Assembly (NCBI RefSeq): GCF_002087085.1
Contig: NZ_MWQY01000010.1
Location: 62,001 to 126,000 of the forward strand
Length of the DNA stretch: 64,000 bases
Direction: 5' to 3'
The position numbers were made by a program. Positions 1-18,000 of the stretch are shown here, piece after piece; the first letter of the stretch is position 1; the number at the start of each line of letters is the position of its first letter.

Positions 1-3000
1 GGCGGATAAAAAAACTCAATCCACCCCGGAACTAATCCCAGGGACCAGAGTCCCGGTCCCCGCTCTGCCCTCTTTTAAACCTGAATTGGATACCTGCCGT
101 ATTTCTCCCGCGCCTCCATCATGGCTGCATAGTTTTCCAGGGTGGTTCCGTTCTCCAGGCCGTTTCCGCTGGCCAGGACCAGACCTCCTCCAGGGGCTGC
201 ATTCTGGATGGCGTATTGTGCTTCCCGCTCCACATCCTCCGGACTTCCCTGGATGAGGGTCTCGCAGTTCACCCCTCCAAAAAAGCAGAGCCTGCCGCGG
301 TACTTCTCCTTCAGGAGCTTGAAGTCCATCCCGATACTCGACTGGATACCGTGCCAGCCATCAACCCCCGCCTCCACCAGGTCATCCAGAATATCCCAGG
401 TTCGTCCGTCGGTGTGTTTGATAAAATAGCCCCCCTTGGCGTGGGTGGCCTCAACCTGTTTTCTGATGCCCGGCAGAATAAACTCGGCGAACCGTTCATA
501 ACCCATCATCAGGCCCCGGTTATCCGCATAGTCATCCGTGGGCATAACGGCGTCGGCTCCGGCATCGAGAAAGGCGTTTATATAGGCGATACTGCGGTTA
601 ACATAAACCTCCGAGGCCTTCTTAACGAAATCCGGATCAAGGATCATCCGGACCATGTACTCCTCGATTCCCACGGTCTGCTTGTAGGCGAAGGTCCCGT
701 CCAGGGGCAGGCGGGCAATAATGAAATGGGTTTTCTTCATTTCAGCTATTACCCCCCGGATTACCTCCAGTTCGCTCTCATCAACCTTAAAGTCTTCATC
801 CGCATCCGGCAGCTCGTCAATGGTCATTTCGGTGTTGTAGACCTGGCTGACAAGCTGTCCGACCCCCGGATTGTAATGAAACTGCTGTCCGGAATCATCC
901 TCCCAGGAGTACTCCCCCAGCATTTTGGGCTTTTTATACTCCCTGTCCGCTGGGGAGGCGGGAATACGTATGTAGTCATGACCGAGGAGCTTCGGCAGCC
1001 CGGTCAGGGTGCTGATGGAATCCTGTATATAGTCGTCCCTGCGGCCGTCCCAGCAGGCCTTAAGTTCGGCGAAGCCGTTTCCGTACATGACCTCCCGCTT
1101 GAGGTATTTCTCCACCAGACTGTGGTGAATATGGTTTTCCCCCATGGGGACAAGATCCGGCTCCCGGTGCTGGAGCTGAGCGATTACCCGTTCTCGTGGC
1201 AACAAAATACAACCTCCTGGTACTGATGATCAGACTGTCTGCACGTCTTCTGCTTATAATGCAAAATACATGCCAAAAAAATCAAATGAAACAACTTAAT
1301 AAATGCATATACCACATGCACTTAAAAACCACAATACTCTGTATGCACCGAACCGCGTCTCGTGTGTCGCCAGGATGCGAAACACGGCTGCATCATATGT
1401 TGCACGGTGCAACATTACTATCGATCTGACGCTGGTTCTACAGGTCTTCGCCCATCACCATGGCATGCTGCGCCGACACGGGACTTTCGCAGGCAACCAT
1501 CTCTGCCGCGCAGAGATAACGTGCCTTGTCCGGCAGTTTTTCCCCGTCTCTCTCAGCATAATCCCTGATATAATTGAGAACTCTTATTCTTTTTTCATCG
1601 CCGGTTACAGCGGTCTTCTGAATGATGAAATCCAGAAGCAGGGGCGGGTACTCCGGTCCGTGCAGGTAAGCGATCAGCCTGGACAAAGATTCAGAATTAC
1701 CGGATTCCGGGATTTCCCCTCTCAAGGCATTCAGGCCTTCCTTCGAATCCTGCAGATACAGGGAAAAATGGGAATAAAACCATAAGCCTGTTTGCAGCAG
1801 TCCGGCGGCACTGAGAATCAGGTCGTCGATAATGTGGGGATGAGGACAGCCGGATATTTTTTCGAAAATCAACGGAAGGGCCTCAATCCGTTCCATGATT
1901 TCCAGCGCTTTAACAAGGTAAATTATTTCCCTGGGATTCATATTTTCCCTCAGACTATTGATGACTTTTTCCTCCAGTCCGTCGGAGCAAAAATATGCAA
2001 GCGCAAGGGCGGCCTTGCTTTTCAGCAGGTAGTCCTGTGAATCAAGGGCTTCCGTAAGAGCGTCCTCGGCTTCCTGTCTGATTCGCATGTCCGTGCATTT
2101 ACCGGATTTAGCCAGATCCCCCAGAATTCTGGCGGCGATGTGAGCCGTCGTAAAGGGGTTGTTTCTGACCTGATCGATAAGGAGTCCGAGGGTATTTTTA
2201 TCGGCCCCAAACTGTTCCAGTGACAGCAGGGTCTCGGTCCGCACAAAAATACTGGGAGACTTGAGGCGTTTATGCAGTTCCGAAATGGTAATCCTGTCTT
2301 TTGTTCCCCCCATGGCGAGAACAATACTGCGTTCCTCGTCTTCAGACCTAACCCGCTGAAGCTTGTTCATATAGTACATGGCCTTAAGTGCCCGAGCACT
2401 GAATACGGCGCGAATTGCAGCGGGAATCGCAATGCTTCTGGCGGCAGGCAGATATGCCAGTACGATAATATTGGCAATAAAAAACAGACTTGAACCGAGA
2501 AAATATACGCGAAACGAGATAAGGCTCTGGTTGAAATATCCCTGCAACCAGCCAAGCAGGAAGCCCCCGCCCAGCGACCCGATCATACCGAAAAAACCAC
2601 GGGCCATGTTTATAATTATGCCCAGATCAAGATGATCTTCCGGTTTCGTTGTGGACAGAAAGTAGATATCTGCAACAGCGTTAAATCCCCAGTAGGTCAT
2701 TTGTTCAAGAAAAAAAGCTGTACAGAGAAAGAAAATTGTAAGAAACCACGAAGAAAAAACCGGAGCCGCAATAACCAGTAACAGGAACAGCAAACGCAGG
2801 GCATTGAAAAAAAAGTATACCGGTCGCGGACCTATACGGTCCGAAAGAAATCGCAGTAATCCCGCCATGGTCAGCGCCCCAAGGGCACCAGAAACCGTAA
2901 AGTACACGACCATATTATCAGGCTGCGTGTACACATCCTTTGCATAAACAACGATGAAACCAAGGGACATTCCTATGCCTATGTTGCTGAACATGACAAG

Positions 3001-15000: not shown

Positions 15001-18000
15001 GGAATTGAAAACATAGCGCATGGTTACCTCGGTAAACAGAACAAGAACCAGGGCCATTACCAGATACTTTATGAACTGTCCGGTTGCCTCGCTCAATGCA
15101 AAGACTGAACGGGCAAAACCGCGGACAATGGCCCAGTCATTTTCCAGGGCTTCTTTTCCCATCGGATAACTCCTGTAAGACTCCCTGCCGGCTCTGACTG
15201 ATCCGGCAGGGGTTATTTGGTTAAGTGCTACTTTATGTCGAAACGTTCGCAAACCTCTTTCCAGGCCATGGCACTGTCATAGATTCGCTTGTAATTGGGA
15301 TCCTTGGCAGACTCTTCCTGGAAATACTCCAGGGATTTCTCGTTCAAGAGATCGATAATGTCCTGGGGAACCGGTTCCACGATGGTTCCGGCGTCGATAT
15401 ATTTCTGCACTGCTTCCACATCACGGTTTACCGACTCGGTGTAGTACTCCCTGGCGATCTGGTCTGTCGCCATGGTAACAATTGTCTTGAGATTCTCCGG
15501 CAGTTTGTCCCAGGTATCCCCGTTGACATAGATACACTGGGTATCCGTAGGTGCCCGGGAAGGAGACAGGTACATATACTTCGCAACCTCGTGGAATCCC
15601 ATATCCCAGTTCAGCGAGGGGTTGATGTATTCGAACCCGTCAATAACGCCTCTTTTCGCAGATTCATAAATCTCTCCCCCGGGGAGAAAGACCGGGGTCG
15701 CTCCCATTTTCTGGAAAATTGCGTTCAGCGCTGTAGTCCCGAGCCGTACCTTCCATCCCTTGATATCCGCAACAGACCGGAGGGGTTTGGTGGAGTGGGC
15801 CCAGACCTCAGCAGGGCTGAGAGTCAGGATACCGACATAGTGAACCCCCAGATCATCGTAAAGGTCCTGGGCTATTTTACGACCCTCCAGCTTCATCCAC
15901 ATCTCGAGCTGATTCGAGGTCAGTCCTCCCGGATACTGGGTAAAGAACACGGCGCCGGGAAGGTAGCCGATTGTCCAGCCCGGAGGTCCGTGAACCGCTT
16001 CCACAGATCCCGACATGACCGAATCAAACTCTTTTCCACCGGGAATAACCGATCCGGCGGTATACGGTGTAATAAGGAGCTGCCCGTCGGAAGCAATTTC
16101 AACCACCTCCGCGAAACGCTGAGCCGCTTCGTAGGTCCTGTCTCCGGCGGGAGCCCAGGACTGCAGCCTCCAGCGTATAACCTCCTTTTTAGGAGCCGCC
16201 GCTTCAGCCGTTGCATCCTCCCCTGAGGAACCGCCGCAGGCGATCAGCATACCGAAGGTCAATACGATGAGTATCAGGAAAACTATACCCCTCTGTCCTC
16301 TGTTCATTCCGTACCTCCTGGTCAATATAAAGCGCAAAGAAAATCTGCGCCTGAAGGTGGATATTCAAGAAGCGTACCAGCTGCAGCTCCACAGAAAGAG
16401 ATTCGGGGAAAAACATCTTAAATGTTCAGCATCTTCTATCTTATTGACGGGTAAGTATTTAATTACCTGATAAACAGGCTTGCCAGGGTTATCGGTGCAT
16501 ATGCGCCCGTATACCGGGATATACAAGAAAGTACATGCTGTAAAAAACTGCAGCCGGTGCGGTATTCTCCGGCACTGTGCTGCGTATTTTCTTGTCGATT
16601 TTCCGGGCCCGTGCAATAATAGGTATAATGGATGCTTATGCGATCCTGCCGTACAAAGGCCTGGTGGAAATTGCTTCGGAAACCGGGAGAGAACTGAAAC
16701 TCGACCTGAAGATTTTCGAGGGTGAAACCGAAGAGGCAATACCCTTCGCCATGGATGCCCAGAAACGGGGGGCGGACTGCATCATCAGCCGGGGGGGAAC
16801 AGCCTCCATAATTGAACGGTATGTCAATGTTCCCATTGTACGGGTCCCGGTAAGTGAACTGGACCTCCTGCGAATTCTCTATCCTTTGAAAGGCCTGGAC
16901 AGAAAGATCCTGGTTGTGGGCTTCAGAAACGCTGTATTCCGGGCCAGGTCCGCCGCACGGGTTTTAGGTCTTCAAATCCAGGAACTCCCGATCCCCTATG
17001 AGGCTGCCGACTATAATTTTGACCATATCAGACGCAGCGCGGAACACCTTATCCGCCATCACGGAATCGATACAATTATCGGGGATCAGACCGCCTTTAT
17101 AAATCTCAGATCCTACTGCGAGAGTCAGTACCTGATAACATCCAGCAAGGATGATTTTCTCACAGCCCTCAGGAATTCACAGCTCCTGAACACGGATGGT
17201 CAGCGGGAACAGCAGGATCAGATCCAGGTCGTGTTGAATGCTGTGCAGGAGGGTATTATCTCTACCGACACCCATGGAAGAGTAACCAGCTTCAATATAA
17301 AGGCGGCGGAGATTTTCGGAATGGAACCGGGTATGGTGATAGGCGCCTCTCTGGATGAACTGGCCGGGTATTTCAGGGATTTCGAAGAACTGAAATCCAC
17401 AATCTCCCTTACCCTTCGCAATGGAAACCCGGAGAGCATACAACTCTCCCGCCCGAAGGGCCCCGAGGTCTACGAGATCAATTCCGCCCCCCTGGTATCA
17501 CAAAAGGGAATTCACGGGACAGTGACAACTATCATACGAAGCAGTCACGCTCATAGCGGTAAGAGCGCCGGGAATAAGCACCCATCTGCCGGAACATTCA
17601 ACACTCATTACAGTTTCAAGGATATCCTGGGCAGGGATGAAGCCTTTGTACGTGTGCTGGCCGTCGCCCGGGCCTATACCATGACGGATGCCACAATCCT
17701 GATTGAAGGGGAAAGCGGTGTGGGAAAGGAGATGTTCGCCCAGAGTATTCACGCCTCGGGGCCAAGAAAAGAGGGTCCTTTCGTGGCGGTAAACTGTGCC
17801 TCCATACCTGAACCGCTTTTGGAGAGTGAACTCTTCGGCTACGAGCAGGGAGCATTTACCGGAGCCTCCAGGGCGGGACAGAAAGGACTCTTCGAGCTGG
17901 CCGACGGAGGAACTCTTTTCCTGGACGAAATAAGCGAGATTGATCAGAAAATGCAGATGAATCTTCTGCGGGTCCTGGAAGAACGCCGGATTCGCCGCAT

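What a model noticed while it worked through the whole genome (the two positions that open the first line are those of the whole stretch)
75..16307. Fifteen UroD-family paralogues in a genome without tetrapyrrole synthesis, most wired to TRAP/TTT carboxylate transporte [...]
The genome has 15 genes of the uroporphyrinogen decarboxylase (URO-D/MtaA) family but no gene for making uroporphyrinogen, haem or cobalamin, and only one of them (g00417) lies beside a corrinoid protein; nine lie directly beside TRAP (DctPQM) or TTT (TctABC) transporter operons, three of them in C2:62-78 kb. I propose that these are substrate-specific enzymes of an unrecognised catabolic scheme for imported organic acids, most likely methyltransferases for methoxylated acids that share one corrinoid protein. 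The transporter-URO-D pairing (at least 649 genomes) has no assigned function.
Evidence so far: URO-D rows and contexts: g00272,g00363,g00367,g01061,g02090,g02105,g02109,g03739,g03740 next to DctPQM/TctABC. No ALAD, porphobilinogen deaminase, UroS or Cbi/Cob biosynthesis Pfam rows. neighbours.tsv: URO-D within 2 genes of DctM in 649 genomes, of TctC in 478. MAFFT alignment of the 15: Arg, Asp and His columns kept in 10-14; the column of Cys231 of g00417 is Cys in 8 and Asp in 7. One paper holds uroporphyrinogen decarboxylase + TRAP transporter + gene cluster, on Desulfitobacterium proteomics.
(Added by a program. Inside this text positions count along the whole contig: contig position 62,001 is position 1 of the stretch shown here. 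"Call 12" and the like, gene names such as g00115 and contig names such as C1 are that model's own, and its searches are not shown. The text may have been shortened before it was handed on; [...] marks where a part breaks off. The agent that wrote the report below was given it as the finding of a first reader that could run no searches.)

Follow-up and report, generated by a model that had tools for sequence, protein, structure and literature searches.

The report
Transporter-linked UroD-like methyltransferases sharing one corrinoid protein
A haem-less spirochaete carries fifteen UroD-fold genes, most placed beside nutrient importers, that probably strip methyl groups from imported sugar-like acids using one shared vitamin-B12 carrier protein, a route not yet described for non-aromatic compounds.

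Summary
The genome has 15 PF01208 matches and no ALAD, PBGD, UroS, CbiC or CobS. It has one canonical corrinoid protein (CP), beside one URO-D gene. Three URO-D genes lie at window 75-1205, 6564-7757 and 11085-12104, next to TctABC, DctPQM and an MFS-HEAT transporter.

None is HemE; all score closer to MtaA/CmuA, below cut-off. At the MtaA zinc site the window proteins carry His-x-Cys...Asp or His-x-Asp. One paper describes that pattern for O-methyltransferases of this superfamily (PMC10418091).

- A close CP homologue occurs in 47 of 50 genomes carrying the 6564-7757 type.
- RACo occurs in 32 of 33 spirochaete and 33 of 34 Christensenellales genomes with expanded URO-D sets.
- Some relatives sit in one cluster with CP or RACo.
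- A complex model scored 0.78 against 0.00 for controls.

Best reading (0.55): dispersed O-demethylating methyltransferases sharing one CP-RACo hub. Substrate and methyl acceptor are unknown. A corrinoid-independent metalloenzyme remains a live rival.

The parts
75..1205 (-). URO-D family gene, 'A-type' (376 aa). Motif KHTDG (His264-x-Asp266) at the MtaA His-x-Cys site, Asn348 at the second MtaA Cys.
   Evidence: PF01208 89.2 bits. Best solved relative is MtaA 4ay7 at E 2.9e-12, and that alignment shows HtDG against HiCG and sgNG against pgCG. H264, D266, H285, N348 and D224-D225 are invariant in 27 of 27 homologues.
1260..1275 (-). Sigma-54 promoter-like element TGGCATGTATTTTGCA, about 55 nt upstream of the A-type gene's start.
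   Evidence: One mismatch to a consensus recalled from memory. The window as a whole has no more such matches than shuffles (20 against 24.3 expected), so only its position speaks for it.
1438..3687 (-). 749-aa membrane protein: MFS-like N-terminal half with about 10 hydrophobic segments in residues 15-408, and a HEAT-repeat C-terminal part.
   Evidence: HEAT_2 30.9 bits; MFS_1 25 bits, below its cut-off. Hydropathy scan.
3749..4663 (-). DHDPS-family protein (aldolase or dehydratase of 2-keto-3-deoxy acids).
   Evidence: PF00701 102.8 bits. NCBIfam gives only sub-threshold hits to HpaI-like, KdgD and NanA models.
4706..5551 (-). NAD_binding_2/DUF1932 dehydrogenase (HIBADH / tartronate-semialdehyde-reductase-like).
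5582..6544 (-). D-2-hydroxyacid dehydrogenase family protein.
   Evidence: PF02826 181.6 bits and PF00389 106.6 bits.
6564..7757 (-). URO-D family gene, 'B-type' (397 aa), directly downstream of tctA. His284-Ser-Cys286, with Arg363-x-Asp365 in place of the second MtaA Cys.
   Evidence: PF01208 64.1 bits. D250, E270, H284, S285 and C286 are invariant in 25 of 25, and D365 in 23 of 25. AF2 model pLDDT 92.8. Best fold match is MtaA 4ay7 at Z 20.4, against UroD chains at Z 19.6-20.1. Complex model with the genome's CP scored 0.78 against 0.00.
7785..10892 (-). TctC (9900-10892), TctB (9315-9806) and TctA (7785-9296): a tripartite tricarboxylate-type transporter.
   Evidence: PF03401 123 bits, PF07331 53.2 bits, PF01970 410.7 bits.
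11085..12104 (-). URO-D family gene, 'C-type'. Probably 335 aa from the ATG at 12092. Motif FFHSDG (His239-x-Asp241).
   Evidence: PF01208 55.3 bits. A 335-aa identical record exists. H239 is invariant; position 241 is Asp in 21 and Cys in 6 of 27 homologues.
12189..13214 (-). 341-aa protein with no Pfam or NCBIfam hit. It is not a URO-D. The predicted fold resembles the N-terminal thiamine-diphosphate domain of transketolase/DXS.
   Evidence: no family. (does not align with the URO-D set). Atlas structure search TM 0.77-0.78 by query; a lead only.
13280..16307 (-). DctP (15228-16307, ATG at 16307), DctQ (14617-15252) and DctM (13280-14620): a TRAP transporter.
   Evidence: PF03480 135.6 bits, PF04290 82.5 bits, PF06808 264.1 bits. 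Start codon read.
16577..18559 (+). Divergent sigma-54-dependent activator (PrpR_N, PAS, AAA+, HTH_8).
   Evidence: The same regulator type sits in the Desulfosporosinus cluster L106, together with URO-D genes, DctPQM and a CP, and beside the C1:296058 URO-D/DctPQM locus.

Best explanation
The three window genes, and most of their twelve paralogues, are substrate-specific corrinoid-dependent methyltransferases of the UroD fold ('MT I'). Each is encoded with the importer of its own substrate rather than with a corrinoid protein.

Inferred mechanism:
1. A methylated compound enters through TctABC, DctPQM or the MFS-HEAT protein. Most likely it is a methyl ether of a sugar acid, hydroxy acid, sugar or polyol.
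2. The URO-D enzyme binds the ether oxygen at a His/Asp(Cys)/carboxylate metal site and passes the methyl group to Co(I) of the genome's single corrinoid protein (contig C2:132698-133369, just outside the window).
3. That protein is kept active by the RACo activase encoded beside it.
4. It is unloaded by another URO-D paralogue. The candidate is the 450-aa C2:131544 protein with a thioredoxin-like tail, next to a CobW-type GTPase.
5. The acceptor is probably tetrahydrofolate. MTHFR and formate-THF ligase are present and acetyl-CoA synthase is not.
6. The demethylated product is then handled by the neighbouring 2-hydroxyacid dehydrogenase, HIBADH-like dehydrogenase and DHDPS-family enzyme.

Shown here: gene content, family affinity, conservation of the site, co-occurrence, linkage in relatives, and a complex model that passed its controls. 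Inferred: activity, the metal, the substrates, the acceptor and the direction of transfer.
For: 1. Not haem enzymes. hemE (TIGR01464) scores at most 115 bits against a cut-off of 303 for every paralogue. All score better against MtaA/CmuA models. No ALAD, PBGD or UroS was found.

2. Fold. The AF2 model of the B-type (pLDDT 92.8) matches MtaA 4ay7 at Z 20.4. UroD chains are tied with it at Z 19.6-20.1.

3. Metal site. His is kept in 13 of 14 aligned paralogues; C2c has Phe. The next ligand is Cys or Asp. Within the C-type family the same column is Asp in 21 and Cys in 6 of 27, as expected for a metal ligand. PMC10418091 (Results read) states that S-methyltransferases of this superfamily have His-Cys-Cys. 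It states that in O-methyltransferases one or both Cys are replaced by Asp/Glu or by non-ligands.

4. One hub. The gene order RACo - PocR/AraC - CP - URO-D(+Trx-like tail) - CobW is seen in the own genome. It recurs in a 97% relative and a Rectinemataceae MAG. In two Christensenella genomes the CP has only RACo beside it and no methyltransferase.

5. Co-occurrence.
- 47 of 50 genomes with a B-type homologue hold a short-ORF CP, 44-94% identical to this genome's.
- Spirochaetota sample of 201: RACo in 32 of 33 genomes with two or more URO-D hits, 6 of 47 with one, 17 of 121 with none.
- Christensenellales sample of 151: RACo in 33 of 34 with three or more hits, 35 of 46 with any, 8 of 105 with none.
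- In the spirochaete sample A-type-like (5 of 5), B-type-like (5 of 5) and C-type-like (11 of 11) genomes all have RACo (against 42).

6. Physical linkage in relatives. A Desulfosporosinus MAG (L106) has URO-D x3, including a B-type at 38% identity, then DctPQM, CP, a PrpR-type sigma-54 activator and a mannitol-DH-family gene, all on one strand. Peptococcaceae CEB3 (L044) has URO-D, an MFS sugar transporter, CP, URO-D and a B-type. L071, L091 and L102 have a B-type beside a CP. Three human-gut contigs hold a CUT2 ABC system and RACo. L159 has three tandem URO-D genes with a C-type in the middle, upstream of the ABC ATPase and RACo. A URO-D ORF was called in L153 but none in L149; all three loci were retrieved as C-type matches. 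The AraC-type regulator was seen in the similar locus L157, where no RACo was found.

7. Complex model. B-type plus CP gave ipSAE 0.78 in each of 3 runs, and the best of 3 controls gave 0.00. That mark was reached by 116 of 157 solved complexes and 2 of 215 mismatched pairs. The runs agree in at least 92% of contacts and the partner pLDDT is at least 80. The interface lies next to the conserved NDE and HSC motifs of the barrel and next to His113 of the CP's DxHxxG loop.
Against: 1. No CP, RACo or second-step methyltransferase lies in the window's operons. Linkage is rare in relatives too: a CP within four genes in 5 of 70 B-type loci (6 of 70 anywhere in the locus), and in C-type loci RACo in 3 of 80 and CP in 0 of 80.

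2. The neighbours look like complete sugar-acid or polyol catabolic sets (dehydrogenases, DHDPS-family, enolase-superfamily, RraA-like, transketolase-like). A non-methyl-transfer step would fit there as well.

3. Co-occurrence is between kin. Most spirochaete positives are one family (f15). It could also be indirect, because the same genomes carry canonical MtaA-like genes.

4. URO-D-family genes do exist in genomes without CP or RACo: 11 of 46 URO-D-positive Christensenellales lack RACo, and 10 of those 11 also lack a stand-alone CP (G300 has one). Two genomes of spirochaete genus g8 also lack RACo. Those sampled were only 20-26% identical to the paralogues of this genome, or gave no hit.

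5. B- and C-type profiles hit no solved structure by sequence (E > 0.3). The A-type's match to the MT I CdmB is E 0.82. Kinship with characterised O-demethylases is therefore not shown.

6. The complex pass may reflect likeness to solved methyltransferase-corrinoid complexes.

7. Three of 50 B-type genomes showed no small CP (G002, G008, G018), but these are MAGs of unknown completeness.
Confidence: 0.55

Rival explanations
1. Corrinoid-independent metalloenzymes of sugar-acid or polyol catabolism. The UroD barrel with a His/Asp(Cys) metal site would catalyse a decarboxylation, (de)hydration or isomerisation of the imported compound, or of the keto-acid made by the neighbouring dehydrogenases. 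The link to corrinoid genes would be incidental.
For: The operons hold no CP, RACo or MT II. Neighbours are SDR (20 of 70), Zn-ADH (18 of 70), 2-hydroxyacid dehydrogenases, DHDPS-family, enolase-superfamily, RraA-like and transketolase-like genes. Each of the three families is highly conserved across phyla, like a housekeeping catabolic enzyme: mean column identity 49%, 63% and 69%. URO-D-family genes occur in genomes without CP or RACo. The founding member of the family is a cofactor-free decarboxylase.
Against: 47 of 50 B-type genomes have a close CP homologue. All A-, B- and C-type-like spirochaete genomes sampled have RACo, against 55 of 201 overall. Some orthologues lie in one cluster with CP or RACo. 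The complex model passed its controls. In Christensenella the CP and RACo have no methyltransferase beside them, so their partners must be encoded elsewhere. The RACo-less URO-D genes sampled are not close to these types. I know of no characterised sugar-acting UroD-fold enzyme, and none appeared in the paper searches.
Confidence: 0.27
2. They are corrinoid methyltransferases, but the window genes act as the second step (methyl-CP to THF or to a thiol), or B- and C-types form MT I/MT II pairs. They might also act on S-, N- or Se-methyl rather than O-methyl compounds.
For: B- and C-types occur together twice in this genome: window 6564 with 11085, and C79:87011 with 85466. A second URO-D lies within four genes of the B-type in 9 of 70 loci and within two genes of the C-type in 13 of 60. 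According to the CdmB paper's methods passage, known MT II enzymes (MtvA, MtqA, OdmD, VdmD) are grouped with bacterial MtaA homologues. C19:30058 and C12:321761 carry a full His-Cys-Cys site, of the type linked to S/Se-methyl substrates (PMC10418091).
Against: A generic unloading enzyme need not be duplicated beside each importer. The 450-aa URO-D next to the CP is the better-placed candidate for that role. The carboxylate-substituted sites of the window proteins fit O-ligands, not thiols (PMC10418091).
Confidence: 0.1
3. Genuine uroporphyrinogen or coproporphyrinogen handling, i.e. salvage or remodelling of imported tetrapyrroles.
For: Pfam names the family URO-D, and the fold match to UroD chains is as good as that to MtaA (Z 19.6-20.1 against 20.4).
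Against: hemE model scores are far below the cut-off. There are no upstream haem genes. There are fifteen divergent copies, and their contexts are sugar and acid catabolism. The gene next to C12:321761 is CrtI-like, not HemY.
Confidence: 0.02

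Closest known systems
Corrinoid-dependent O-demethylase systems of anaerobes (MT I OdmB/VdmB/MtvB/MtoB, and the dehalogenating CdmB), with CP, MT II and activating enzyme
   Same: The MT I has the UroD fold, and CdmB's closest structural homologue is human UroD (PMC13222342, passages read). 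The scheme uses a methyl-Co(III) corrinoid protein intermediate and an ATP-dependent reductive activase. Some MT I enzymes contain zinc and others do not. In this genome a CP and a RACo are present.
   Different: The known systems are compact operons holding MT I, CP, MT II and often the activase, and their substrates are methoxylated aromatics or halomethanes. Here the putative MT I genes are scattered and embedded in transporter and sugar/acid catabolic operons. A single distant CP-RACo locus would have to serve up to 14 of them. Sequence similarity to CdmB is not significant (E 0.82).
Type 1 mlp gene clusters (MtaA-like proteins Mlp1-3 + CP + Ram/RACE; Kountz & Balskus, PMC10418091)
   Same: They are MtaA-like UroD-superfamily proteins in non-methanogenic anaerobes that lack an obvious THF methylase in the cluster. 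The paper also notes multiple UroD-superfamily copies in one genome.
   Different: Mlps carry His-Cys-Cys and are assigned to methyl-sulfur or methyl-selenium metabolism, and they sit together with their own CP and activase. The window proteins have Asp-substituted sites and sit with importers, without a CP. Only C19:30058 and C12:321761 of this genome resemble the Mlp/SCMT type; their mtaA_cmuA scores are 225 and 220 bits against a cut-off of 235.
MtaA, methylcobalamin:coenzyme M methyltransferase (PDB 4ay7)
   Same: It is the best solved relative by fold for the B-type (Z 20.4) and by sequence for the A-type (E 2.9e-12). The His of the zinc motif is conserved.
   Different: MtaA's second and third zinc ligands are Cys. 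Here they are Asp/Asn (A-type), Cys/Asp (B-type) or Asp (C-type). No paralogue reached an NCBIfam MtaA/MtbA cut-off. The methyl acceptor here cannot be assigned, and MtaA itself unloads the corrinoid protein rather than loading it.
Shared-carrier methyltransferase networks of Eubacterium limosum (MtqC/MtqA serving several MttB-family MT I enzymes).
   Same: One corrinoid protein and one unloading enzyme serve several substrate-specific MT I enzymes that are encoded elsewhere.
   Different: Those MT I enzymes belong to the MttB family and act on quaternary amines in an acetogen. Here the candidates are UroD-fold proteins in a saccharolytic spirochaete in which no acetyl-CoA synthase was found.
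Cytochrome P450 carbohydrate demethylases (6-O-methyl-galactose; PMC6292453, listing and start of abstract only)
   Same: This is the only carbohydrate demethylation that turned up in my paper searches. It does the same job: removing a methyl ether so that sugar catabolism can proceed.
   Different: It is oxygen-dependent, haem-containing and unrelated in fold. The organism here has no haem synthesis. I take its relatives to be anaerobes from their taxa; this was not tested.

Membership tests
HemE (uroporphyrinogen decarboxylase, TIGR01464) | Score at or above the equivalog cut-off (302.95 bits) | tested here: not met
   The best of the 14 paralogues scanned is 115.1 bits. Among the window proteins, 75-1205, 6564-7757 and 11085-12104 give no hemE hit at E <= 0.001.
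HemE (uroporphyrinogen decarboxylase, TIGR01464) | Pathway context: enzymes that make uroporphyrinogen III (ALAD, PBGD, UroS) | tested here: not met
   0 matches each in a genome that is 97.2% complete.
HemE (uroporphyrinogen decarboxylase, TIGR01464) | UroD (beta/alpha)8 fold | tested here: met
   B-type model against UroD chains: Z 19.6-20.1, 306-312 residues aligned, rmsd 3.9-4.2. Only the B-type was modelled.
MtaA/CmuA family methyltransferases (TIGR01463; SCMT) | Score at or above the subfamily cut-off (235.4 bits) | tested here: not met
   Window proteins score 76.9, 32.9 and 26.8 bits. The best in the genome is 225.2 bits, at C19:30058.
MtaA/CmuA family methyltransferases (TIGR01463; SCMT) | Zinc site His-x-Cys ... 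Cys | tested here: not met
   A-type has HTDG...GN, B-type HSCG...RAD and C-type HSDG. The feature is met only by C19:30058 and C12:321761 (HICG...GCE). C2:131544 has FVCG...GCD.
UroD-superfamily corrinoid O-demethylase MT I | UroD fold, with the zinc-site Cys replaced by a carboxylate or a non-ligand (rule as stated in PMC10418091) | tested here: met
   Fold. Substitutions and their conservation. Metal binding itself was not tested.
UroD-superfamily corrinoid O-demethylase MT I | Encoded with a corrinoid protein, MT II and activating enzyme | tested here: not met
   None lies in the window operons. The feature is met in a minority of relatives: CP within four genes in 5 of 70 B-type loci, and RACo in 3 of 80 C-type loci. 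A CP and a RACo do exist elsewhere on the same contig.
UroD-superfamily corrinoid O-demethylase MT I | Significant sequence kinship with a characterised MT I (OdmB, VdmB, MtvB, CdmB) | tested here: inconclusive
   Only CdmB is among the solved chains: E 0.82 for the A-type and no hit for the B- and C-types.
UroD-superfamily corrinoid O-demethylase MT I | Binds the corrinoid protein | tested here: inconclusive
   The model supports binding (0.78 against 0.00; mark reached by 116 of 157 solved and 2 of 215 mismatched pairs). It is a prediction and may rest on likeness to solved complexes.
UroD-superfamily corrinoid O-demethylase MT I | Methyl transfer from substrate to Co(I) | not testable with these tools
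   Needs an anaerobic enzyme assay.
TRAP (DctPQM) and TTT (TctABC) transporters | All three components adjacent and over the Pfam cut-offs | tested here: met
   DctP 135.6, DctQ 82.5, DctM 264.1, TctC 123, TctB 53.2 and TctA 410.7 bits.

The most novel reading that the evidence does not exclude
Saccharolytic anaerobes, including spirochaetes, Christensenellales, Lachnospiraceae, Atribacterota and Anaerolineae and some members of the human gut, would use a dispersed set of UroD-fold enzymes and one conserved corrinoid-protein/RACo hub. With these they would remove methyl ethers from non-aromatic nutrients. Candidates are methylated sugars, uronic and aldonic acids and cyclitols, for instance 4-O-methyl-glucuronate from xylan; a glucuronate isomerase gene lies at window 60634-62055. 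This would be an oxygen-free counterpart of the P450 carbohydrate demethylases. It would also be a so far uncounted entry of plant- and alga-derived methyl groups into anaerobic one-carbon metabolism.
Probability: 0.3. Interest if true: 0.85.

Novelty: new variant of a known kind. Interest (0 to 1): 0.66.

Why it matters
Genes annotated "uroporphyrinogen decarboxylase family protein" are very numerous in anaerobes that make no haem. First-look candidates reach 99 per genome in one spirochaete family and 51 in Christensenella tenuis. No source gave them a functional name.

If they are methyltransferases fed by sugar and acid importers and served by one shared corrinoid protein, three things follow:
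- A large block of unexplained genes gets a testable function.
- Methylated carbohydrates and acids become a source of C1 units and of vitamin-B12 demand in sediments, sludge and guts.
- The solute-binding proteins next to each gene give a direct experimental route to the substrates.

If the rival is right instead, the UroD fold has been recruited for a new, cofactor-independent step of sugar-acid catabolism. That would also be new.

Tried and rejected
- The 341-aa ORF at 12189-13214 as a fourth, divergent URO-D: rejected. It does not align with the set, has no family hit, and the Atlas points to a transketolase-N-like fold.
- C12:321761 as a true hemE next to hemY: rejected. The neighbour scores as a CrtI-family protein, and the URO-D has HICG...GCE and is 70% identical to the TRAP-linked C19:30058.
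- Sequence profiles of the B- and C-type families against all solved chains gave nothing significant (E >= 0.3). Single-sequence searches of 6564-7757 and 11085-12104 likewise.
- Paper searches. 'uroporphyrinogen decarboxylase' + 'TRAP transporter' gave 2 papers, neither on this pairing. corrinoid + demethylase + pinitol gave 0. In the search joining corrinoid, O-demethylase and methylated-sugar terms, no listed paper held 'corrinoid'. led to PMC10418091. The 4-O-methyl-glucuronic acid + demethylation search listed nothing relevant. The library covers open-access papers only.
- Sigma-54 promoter scan: the window-wide count is at chance level (20 against 24.3 expected). Only the site at 1260-1275 is well placed, and the one before dctP (16364-16379) has two mismatches including the -12 GC.
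- My ORF caller is a crude longest-ORF heuristic. It missed the target gene in 7 of 77 B-type loci and 20 of 80 C-type loci. Neighbour labels for the C-type loci rest on BLAST to a small labelled set, so transporter counts there (16 of 60) are underestimates.
Supplements of PMC13222342 and PMC10418091 were not read, and they may hold trees that already place such subfamilies.

Full report
**What is in the window.** All genes of the finding lie on the minus strand. From the high coordinate downward they are:
- a divergent sigma-54 activator (16577-18559, plus strand; PrpR_N, PAS, AAA+, HTH_8)
- DctP (15228-16307), DctQ (14617-15252) and DctM (13280-14620)
- a 341-aa protein without a family hit (12189-13214)
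- a URO-D gene (11085-12104, called 'C-type' here)
- TctC (9900-10892), TctB (9315-9806) and TctA (7785-9296)
- a URO-D gene (6564-7757, 'B-type')
- a D-2-hydroxyacid dehydrogenase (5582-6544)
- an HIBADH-like dehydrogenase (4706-5551)
- a DHDPS-family protein (3749-4663)
- a 749-aa protein with about ten hydrophobic segments and a HEAT-repeat tail (1438-3687)
- a URO-D gene (75-1205, 'A-type'), preceded by a well-placed sigma-54-like element at 1260-1275

The rest of the window encodes rhamnose genes with a CUT2 ABC transporter, glucuronate isomerase, tagaturonate epimerase and a 2-oxoacid dehydrogenase complex. This is the make-up of a sugar-fermenting organism. The closest public relatives of the B-type gene are uncultured Spirochaetaceae (97% identity) and Treponema.

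**The observation.** The genome has 15 PF01208 matches. One is a fragment on a 769-bp contig and one is a truncated 230-aa ORF. ALAD, porphobilinogen deaminase, UroS, CbiC and CobS gave no match in a genome that is 97.2% complete.

Of the six B12-binding places, only one is a canonical corrinoid protein. It has 223 residues and the motifs GDLHDIGKN, SALLTTT and GGAP. It stands between a PocR/AraC regulator and a 450-aa URO-D with a thioredoxin-like tail. RACo lies on one side and a CobW-type GTPase on the other. This locus is on the same contig, about 4 kb beyond the window's end.

Nine to ten of the URO-D genes lie beside or within two genes of DctPQM or TctABC.

**What the proteins are.** None is HemE. 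The hemE equivalog model scores at most 115 bits against a cut-off of 303, and every paralogue scores better with MtaA/CmuA models, though none reaches a cut-off.

The paralogues fall into types by the residues at the zinc site of MtaA. I mapped that site through the alignment of the A-type with PDB 4ay7 and the alignment of the paralogues:

| Paralogue(s) | Motif |
|---|---|
| C19:30058, C12:321761 | HICG...GCE (full His-Cys-Cys) |
| C2:131544 | FVCG...GCD |
| B-type | HSCG...RAD |
| A-type | HTDG...GN |
| C-type | HSDG |

The site is conserved within each family. In the B-type, D250, E270, H284, S285 and C286 are kept in 25 of 25 sequences and D365 in 23 of 25. In the A-type, H264, D266, H285 and N348 are kept in 27 of 27. 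In the C-type, H239 is kept in 27 of 27, and the next ligand position is Asp in 21 and Cys in 6. That Asp/Cys exchange within one family is what a metal ligand would show.

Kountz and Balskus (PMC10418091; I read the abstract and the whole Results) state the relevant rule. S-methyltransferases of the UroD superfamily have His-Cys-Cys. In the O-methyltransferases one or both Cys are replaced by Asp/Glu or by non-ligands. The window proteins fit the second pattern.

An AlphaFold model of the B-type is confident (pLDDT 92.8, pTM 0.90). Its best match is MtaA (Z 20.4, 317 residues, rmsd 3.9), tied with UroD chains (Z 19.6-20.1). MetE-like barrels follow at about Z 12.

By sequence, the B- and C-type profiles hit no solved chain. 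They are subfamilies without a structural or biochemical representative. No source gave any homologue a name other than 'uroporphyrinogen decarboxylase (family)', 'methylcobalamin:coenzyme M methyltransferase' or 'hypothetical protein'.

**Context in other genomes.** I fetched 77 genomic loci with a B-type homologue, from Spirochaetota, Clostridia, Christensenellales, Atribacterota, Aerophobetes, Anaerolineae, Moorella, Lachnospiraceae and others. My ORF caller found the gene in 70 of them.

The table counts the loci with each neighbour within four genes of the B-type gene:

| Neighbour | Loci (of 70) |
|---|---|
| SDR | 20 |
| Zn-ADH | 18 |
| DctM | 14 |
| CUT1 ABC permease | 13 |
| DctP | 12 |
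| another URO-D | 9 |
| CUT2 permease | 8 |
| GntR/FCD | 7 |
| 2-hydroxyacid dehydrogenase | 5 |
| corrinoid protein | 5 |
| TctC / TctA | 3 each |

The gene typically follows the last transporter gene, whatever the transporter class. The pairing is therefore with import in general, and the enzyme neighbours are those of sugar, polyol and sugar-acid catabolism.

The C-type family is larger, with at least 2001 proteins at E <= 1e-20. Of 80 metagenome loci, 60 had a called gene. Of these, 16 had a recognisable transporter within two genes (CUT1 7, CUT2 7, TRAP 3, TTT 1; an undercount) and 13 had a second URO-D.

**Links to the corrinoid machinery.**

(a) Physical linkage.
- In a Desulfosporosinus MAG (L106) the order is divergent URO-D, HSDG-type URO-D, B-type (38% identity), DctP, DctQ, DctM, corrinoid protein, PrpR-type sigma-54 activator and a mannitol-dehydrogenase-family gene, all on one strand. 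This is the window's architecture with the carrier included.
- Peptococcaceae CEB3 (L044) has HIBADH, URO-D, an MFS sugar transporter, CP, URO-D and a B-type.
- L071, L091 and L102 have a B-type next to a CP.
- Three human-gut contigs (L149, L153, L159) hold a CUT2 ABC system next to RACo. L159 has three tandem URO-D genes, the middle one C-type at 46-47% identity, and an aldose 1-epimerase gene nearby. L153 has one called URO-D ORF and L149 none, although both were retrieved as C-type matches. L157 has an AraC-type regulator, three URO-D genes and the ABC system, but no RACo was found there.
- These cases are a minority: CP within four genes in 5 of 70 loci, and RACo in 3 of 80.

(b) A conserved hub. 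The CP of this genome has homologues of 44-94% identity in short ORFs in 47 of 50 genomes that carry a B-type gene. The exceptions are G002 (only a 1294-aa ORF, of MetH size), G008 and G018. Around those CPs I found RACo, the PocR regulator, the long URO-D with a C-terminal tail and CobW in varying combinations. In two Christensenella genomes the CP has only RACo next to it and no methyltransferase, so its partners must be encoded elsewhere.

(c) Phylogenetic profile.

| Sample | URO-D hits per genome | Genomes with RACo |
|---|---|---|
| Spirochaetota, 201 genomes (>= 85% complete) | two or more | 32 of 33 |
| | one (mostly HemE-like scores) | 6 of 47 |
| | none | 17 of 121 |
| Christensenellales, 151 genomes | three or more | 33 of 34 |
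| | any | 35 of 46 |
| | none | 8 of 105 |

In one genus (g2) the three genomes with URO-D pairs are exactly the three of seven that have RACo. A-type-like (5 of 5), B-type-like (5 of 5) and C-type-like (11 of 11) spirochaete genomes all have RACo, but most belong to one family, f15.

(d) A complex model of the B-type with the CP scored 0.78 in all three runs, against 0.00 for the best of three controls. That mark was reached by 116 of 157 solved complexes and 2 of 215 mismatched pairs. The runs agree in at least 92% of contacts and the partner pLDDT is at least 80. The contacts fall at residues 202-211, 254-261 and 291 of the barrel. These lie next to the conserved R200, NDE 249-251 and HSC 284-286. 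On the CP they fall at residues 64-79 and at 115 and 118, next to His113. The model supports binding but does not show it, and the pass may come from likeness to solved methyltransferase-corrinoid complexes.

**Results that cut the other way.**
- Most loci of all three families contain no corrinoid gene.
- The neighbouring enzymes would make sense around a non-methyl-transfer step.
- Eleven URO-D-positive Christensenellales genomes lack RACo. Ten of these also lack a stand-alone CP and show only B12-domain hits in ORFs of about 800 aa or weak fragments. Two genomes of spirochaete genus g8 have a URO-D hit without RACo, and two others have RACo without URO-D.
- I fetched nine such genes from five Christensenellales genomes and six from five spirochaete genomes. 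They are only 20-26% identical to the paralogues of this genome, or give no hit, so they are other subfamilies. They do show that not every branch of the family needs a corrinoid partner.
- Co-occurrence among kin overstates independence. It could also be carried by the canonical MtaA-like paralogues in the same genomes.

**Most likely mechanism.** I read the system as a hub-and-spoke methyltransferase network. Each spoke is a URO-D enzyme encoded with the importer, and often the downstream dehydrogenases, of one methylated substrate. The hub is the CP with RACo. The 450-aa URO-D beside the CP, which has a thioredoxin-like tail and a CobW-type metallochaperone next to it, is the best-placed candidate for unloading methyl-CP.

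The genome has MTHFR and formate-THF ligase, and no acetyl-CoA synthase was found. A methyl group on THF could therefore be oxidised to formate rather than built into acetate. No cobamide synthesis genes were found, so the cofactor would have to be imported; I did not search for uptake genes.

The Asp-substituted sites argue for O-methyl donors in the window proteins. The His-Cys-Cys paralogue behind DctPQM at C19:30058 may instead handle an S-methyl acid. Every step from substrate to acceptor is inferred.

**Comparison and novelty.** The chemistry and parts list match the known corrinoid O-demethylase systems and the mlp clusters. Three things differ:
- the genetic architecture, with dispersed MT I candidates and one shared carrier;
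- the subfamilies, which have no characterised or solved member;
- the implied substrates, which are non-aromatic, sugar-like and acid.

The paper searches named under 'tried and rejected' found no description of UroD-family genes coupled to TRAP, TTT or ABC sugar transporters. They also found no corrinoid-dependent demethylation of methylated carbohydrates. The carbohydrate demethylases they returned are P450 enzymes (PMC6292453, listing and start of abstract only). I rate this a new variant of a known kind.

**Verdict.** Confidence is 0.55 for the methyltransferase-hub reading, 0.27 for a corrinoid-independent metalloenzyme, and the remainder for variants. Interest is 0.66. The families are very large, unannotated and present in gut and sediment anaerobes, and the adjacent binding proteins make the question directly testable.

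Noticed in passing
window 12189-13214 (-): A 341-aa ORF between dctM and the C-type URO-D has no Pfam or NCBIfam hit. The Atlas model matches the N-terminal thiamine-diphosphate domain of transketolase/DXS (TM 0.77-0.78 by query). Transketolase-like or E1 genes also flank other URO-D loci (C1:296058; Moorella loci L042 and L043).
   Followed up: partly
L019:9184-10536 (-) = contig C2:131184-132536, outside the window: The URO-D next to the corrinoid protein is 450 aa long. It has Phe in place of the zinc-site His (FVCG...GCD) and a roughly 100-residue C-terminal extension with a CxxC motif. That extension gives a weak hit to an MJ0307-type thioredoxin model (E 5.5e-05). A CobW-type GTPase follows it. 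ORFs of 445-485 aa are the top URO-D hit in many Christensenellales genomes.
   Followed up: partly
The genome search samples (G057, G085, G108, G161, G189; G027, G251, G386): Some lineages have very large URO-D expansions. First-look candidates reach 99 per genome in spirochaete family f15, and 47-55 in G027, G251 and G386 of the Christensenellales sample (G027 = Christensenella tenuis).
   Followed up: no
L021:9493-10541 (+) = contig C1:166493-167541; contig C60: One paralogue is a 230-aa ORF covering only the C-terminal two thirds of the family profile. It is preceded by a 118-aa ORF without a family hit, so it may be a split or frameshifted gene. Another paralogue is a fragment on a 769-bp contig.
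   Followed up: no
window 20001-24000: G+C falls to 0.449 against about 0.55 elsewhere. The stretch holds a TetR regulator and two ORFs (473 and 162 aa) with no family hit at E <= 1e-10.
   Followed up: no
L027 (contig C34:150470-152733) and L029 (contig C21): Two B12-binding-domain proteins look like regulators, not methyl carriers. One is a 350-aa protein directly upstream of a histidine kinase. The other is a 300-aa HTH_3 + B12-binding protein.
   Followed up: partly
L106:250-1305 and cluster 14 (7 loci); L146:9424-10503: A family of about 350-360 aa recurs near B-type and C-type genes. The three members scanned gave a faint URO-D signal (28.7 bits), or none at E <= 1e-5 and E <= 1e-4. It may be a still more divergent UroD-fold family.
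   Followed up: partly
L155 (human gut metagenome contig): A C-type URO-D follows a CUT1 ABC transporter. After it come a histidine kinase/AraC response regulator pair and then URO-D, D-lyxose isomerase and URO-D. This points to a free pentose or hexose derivative as substrate.
   Followed up: no
window 29967-38877 and 59362-62055: Rhamnose isomerase, a class II aldolase, an FGGY kinase and a CUT2 ABC transporter lie at the first range. Glucuronate isomerase (UxaC) and tagaturonate epimerase (UxaE) lie at the second. The organism is equipped for pectin- and xylan-derived sugars.
   Followed up: no
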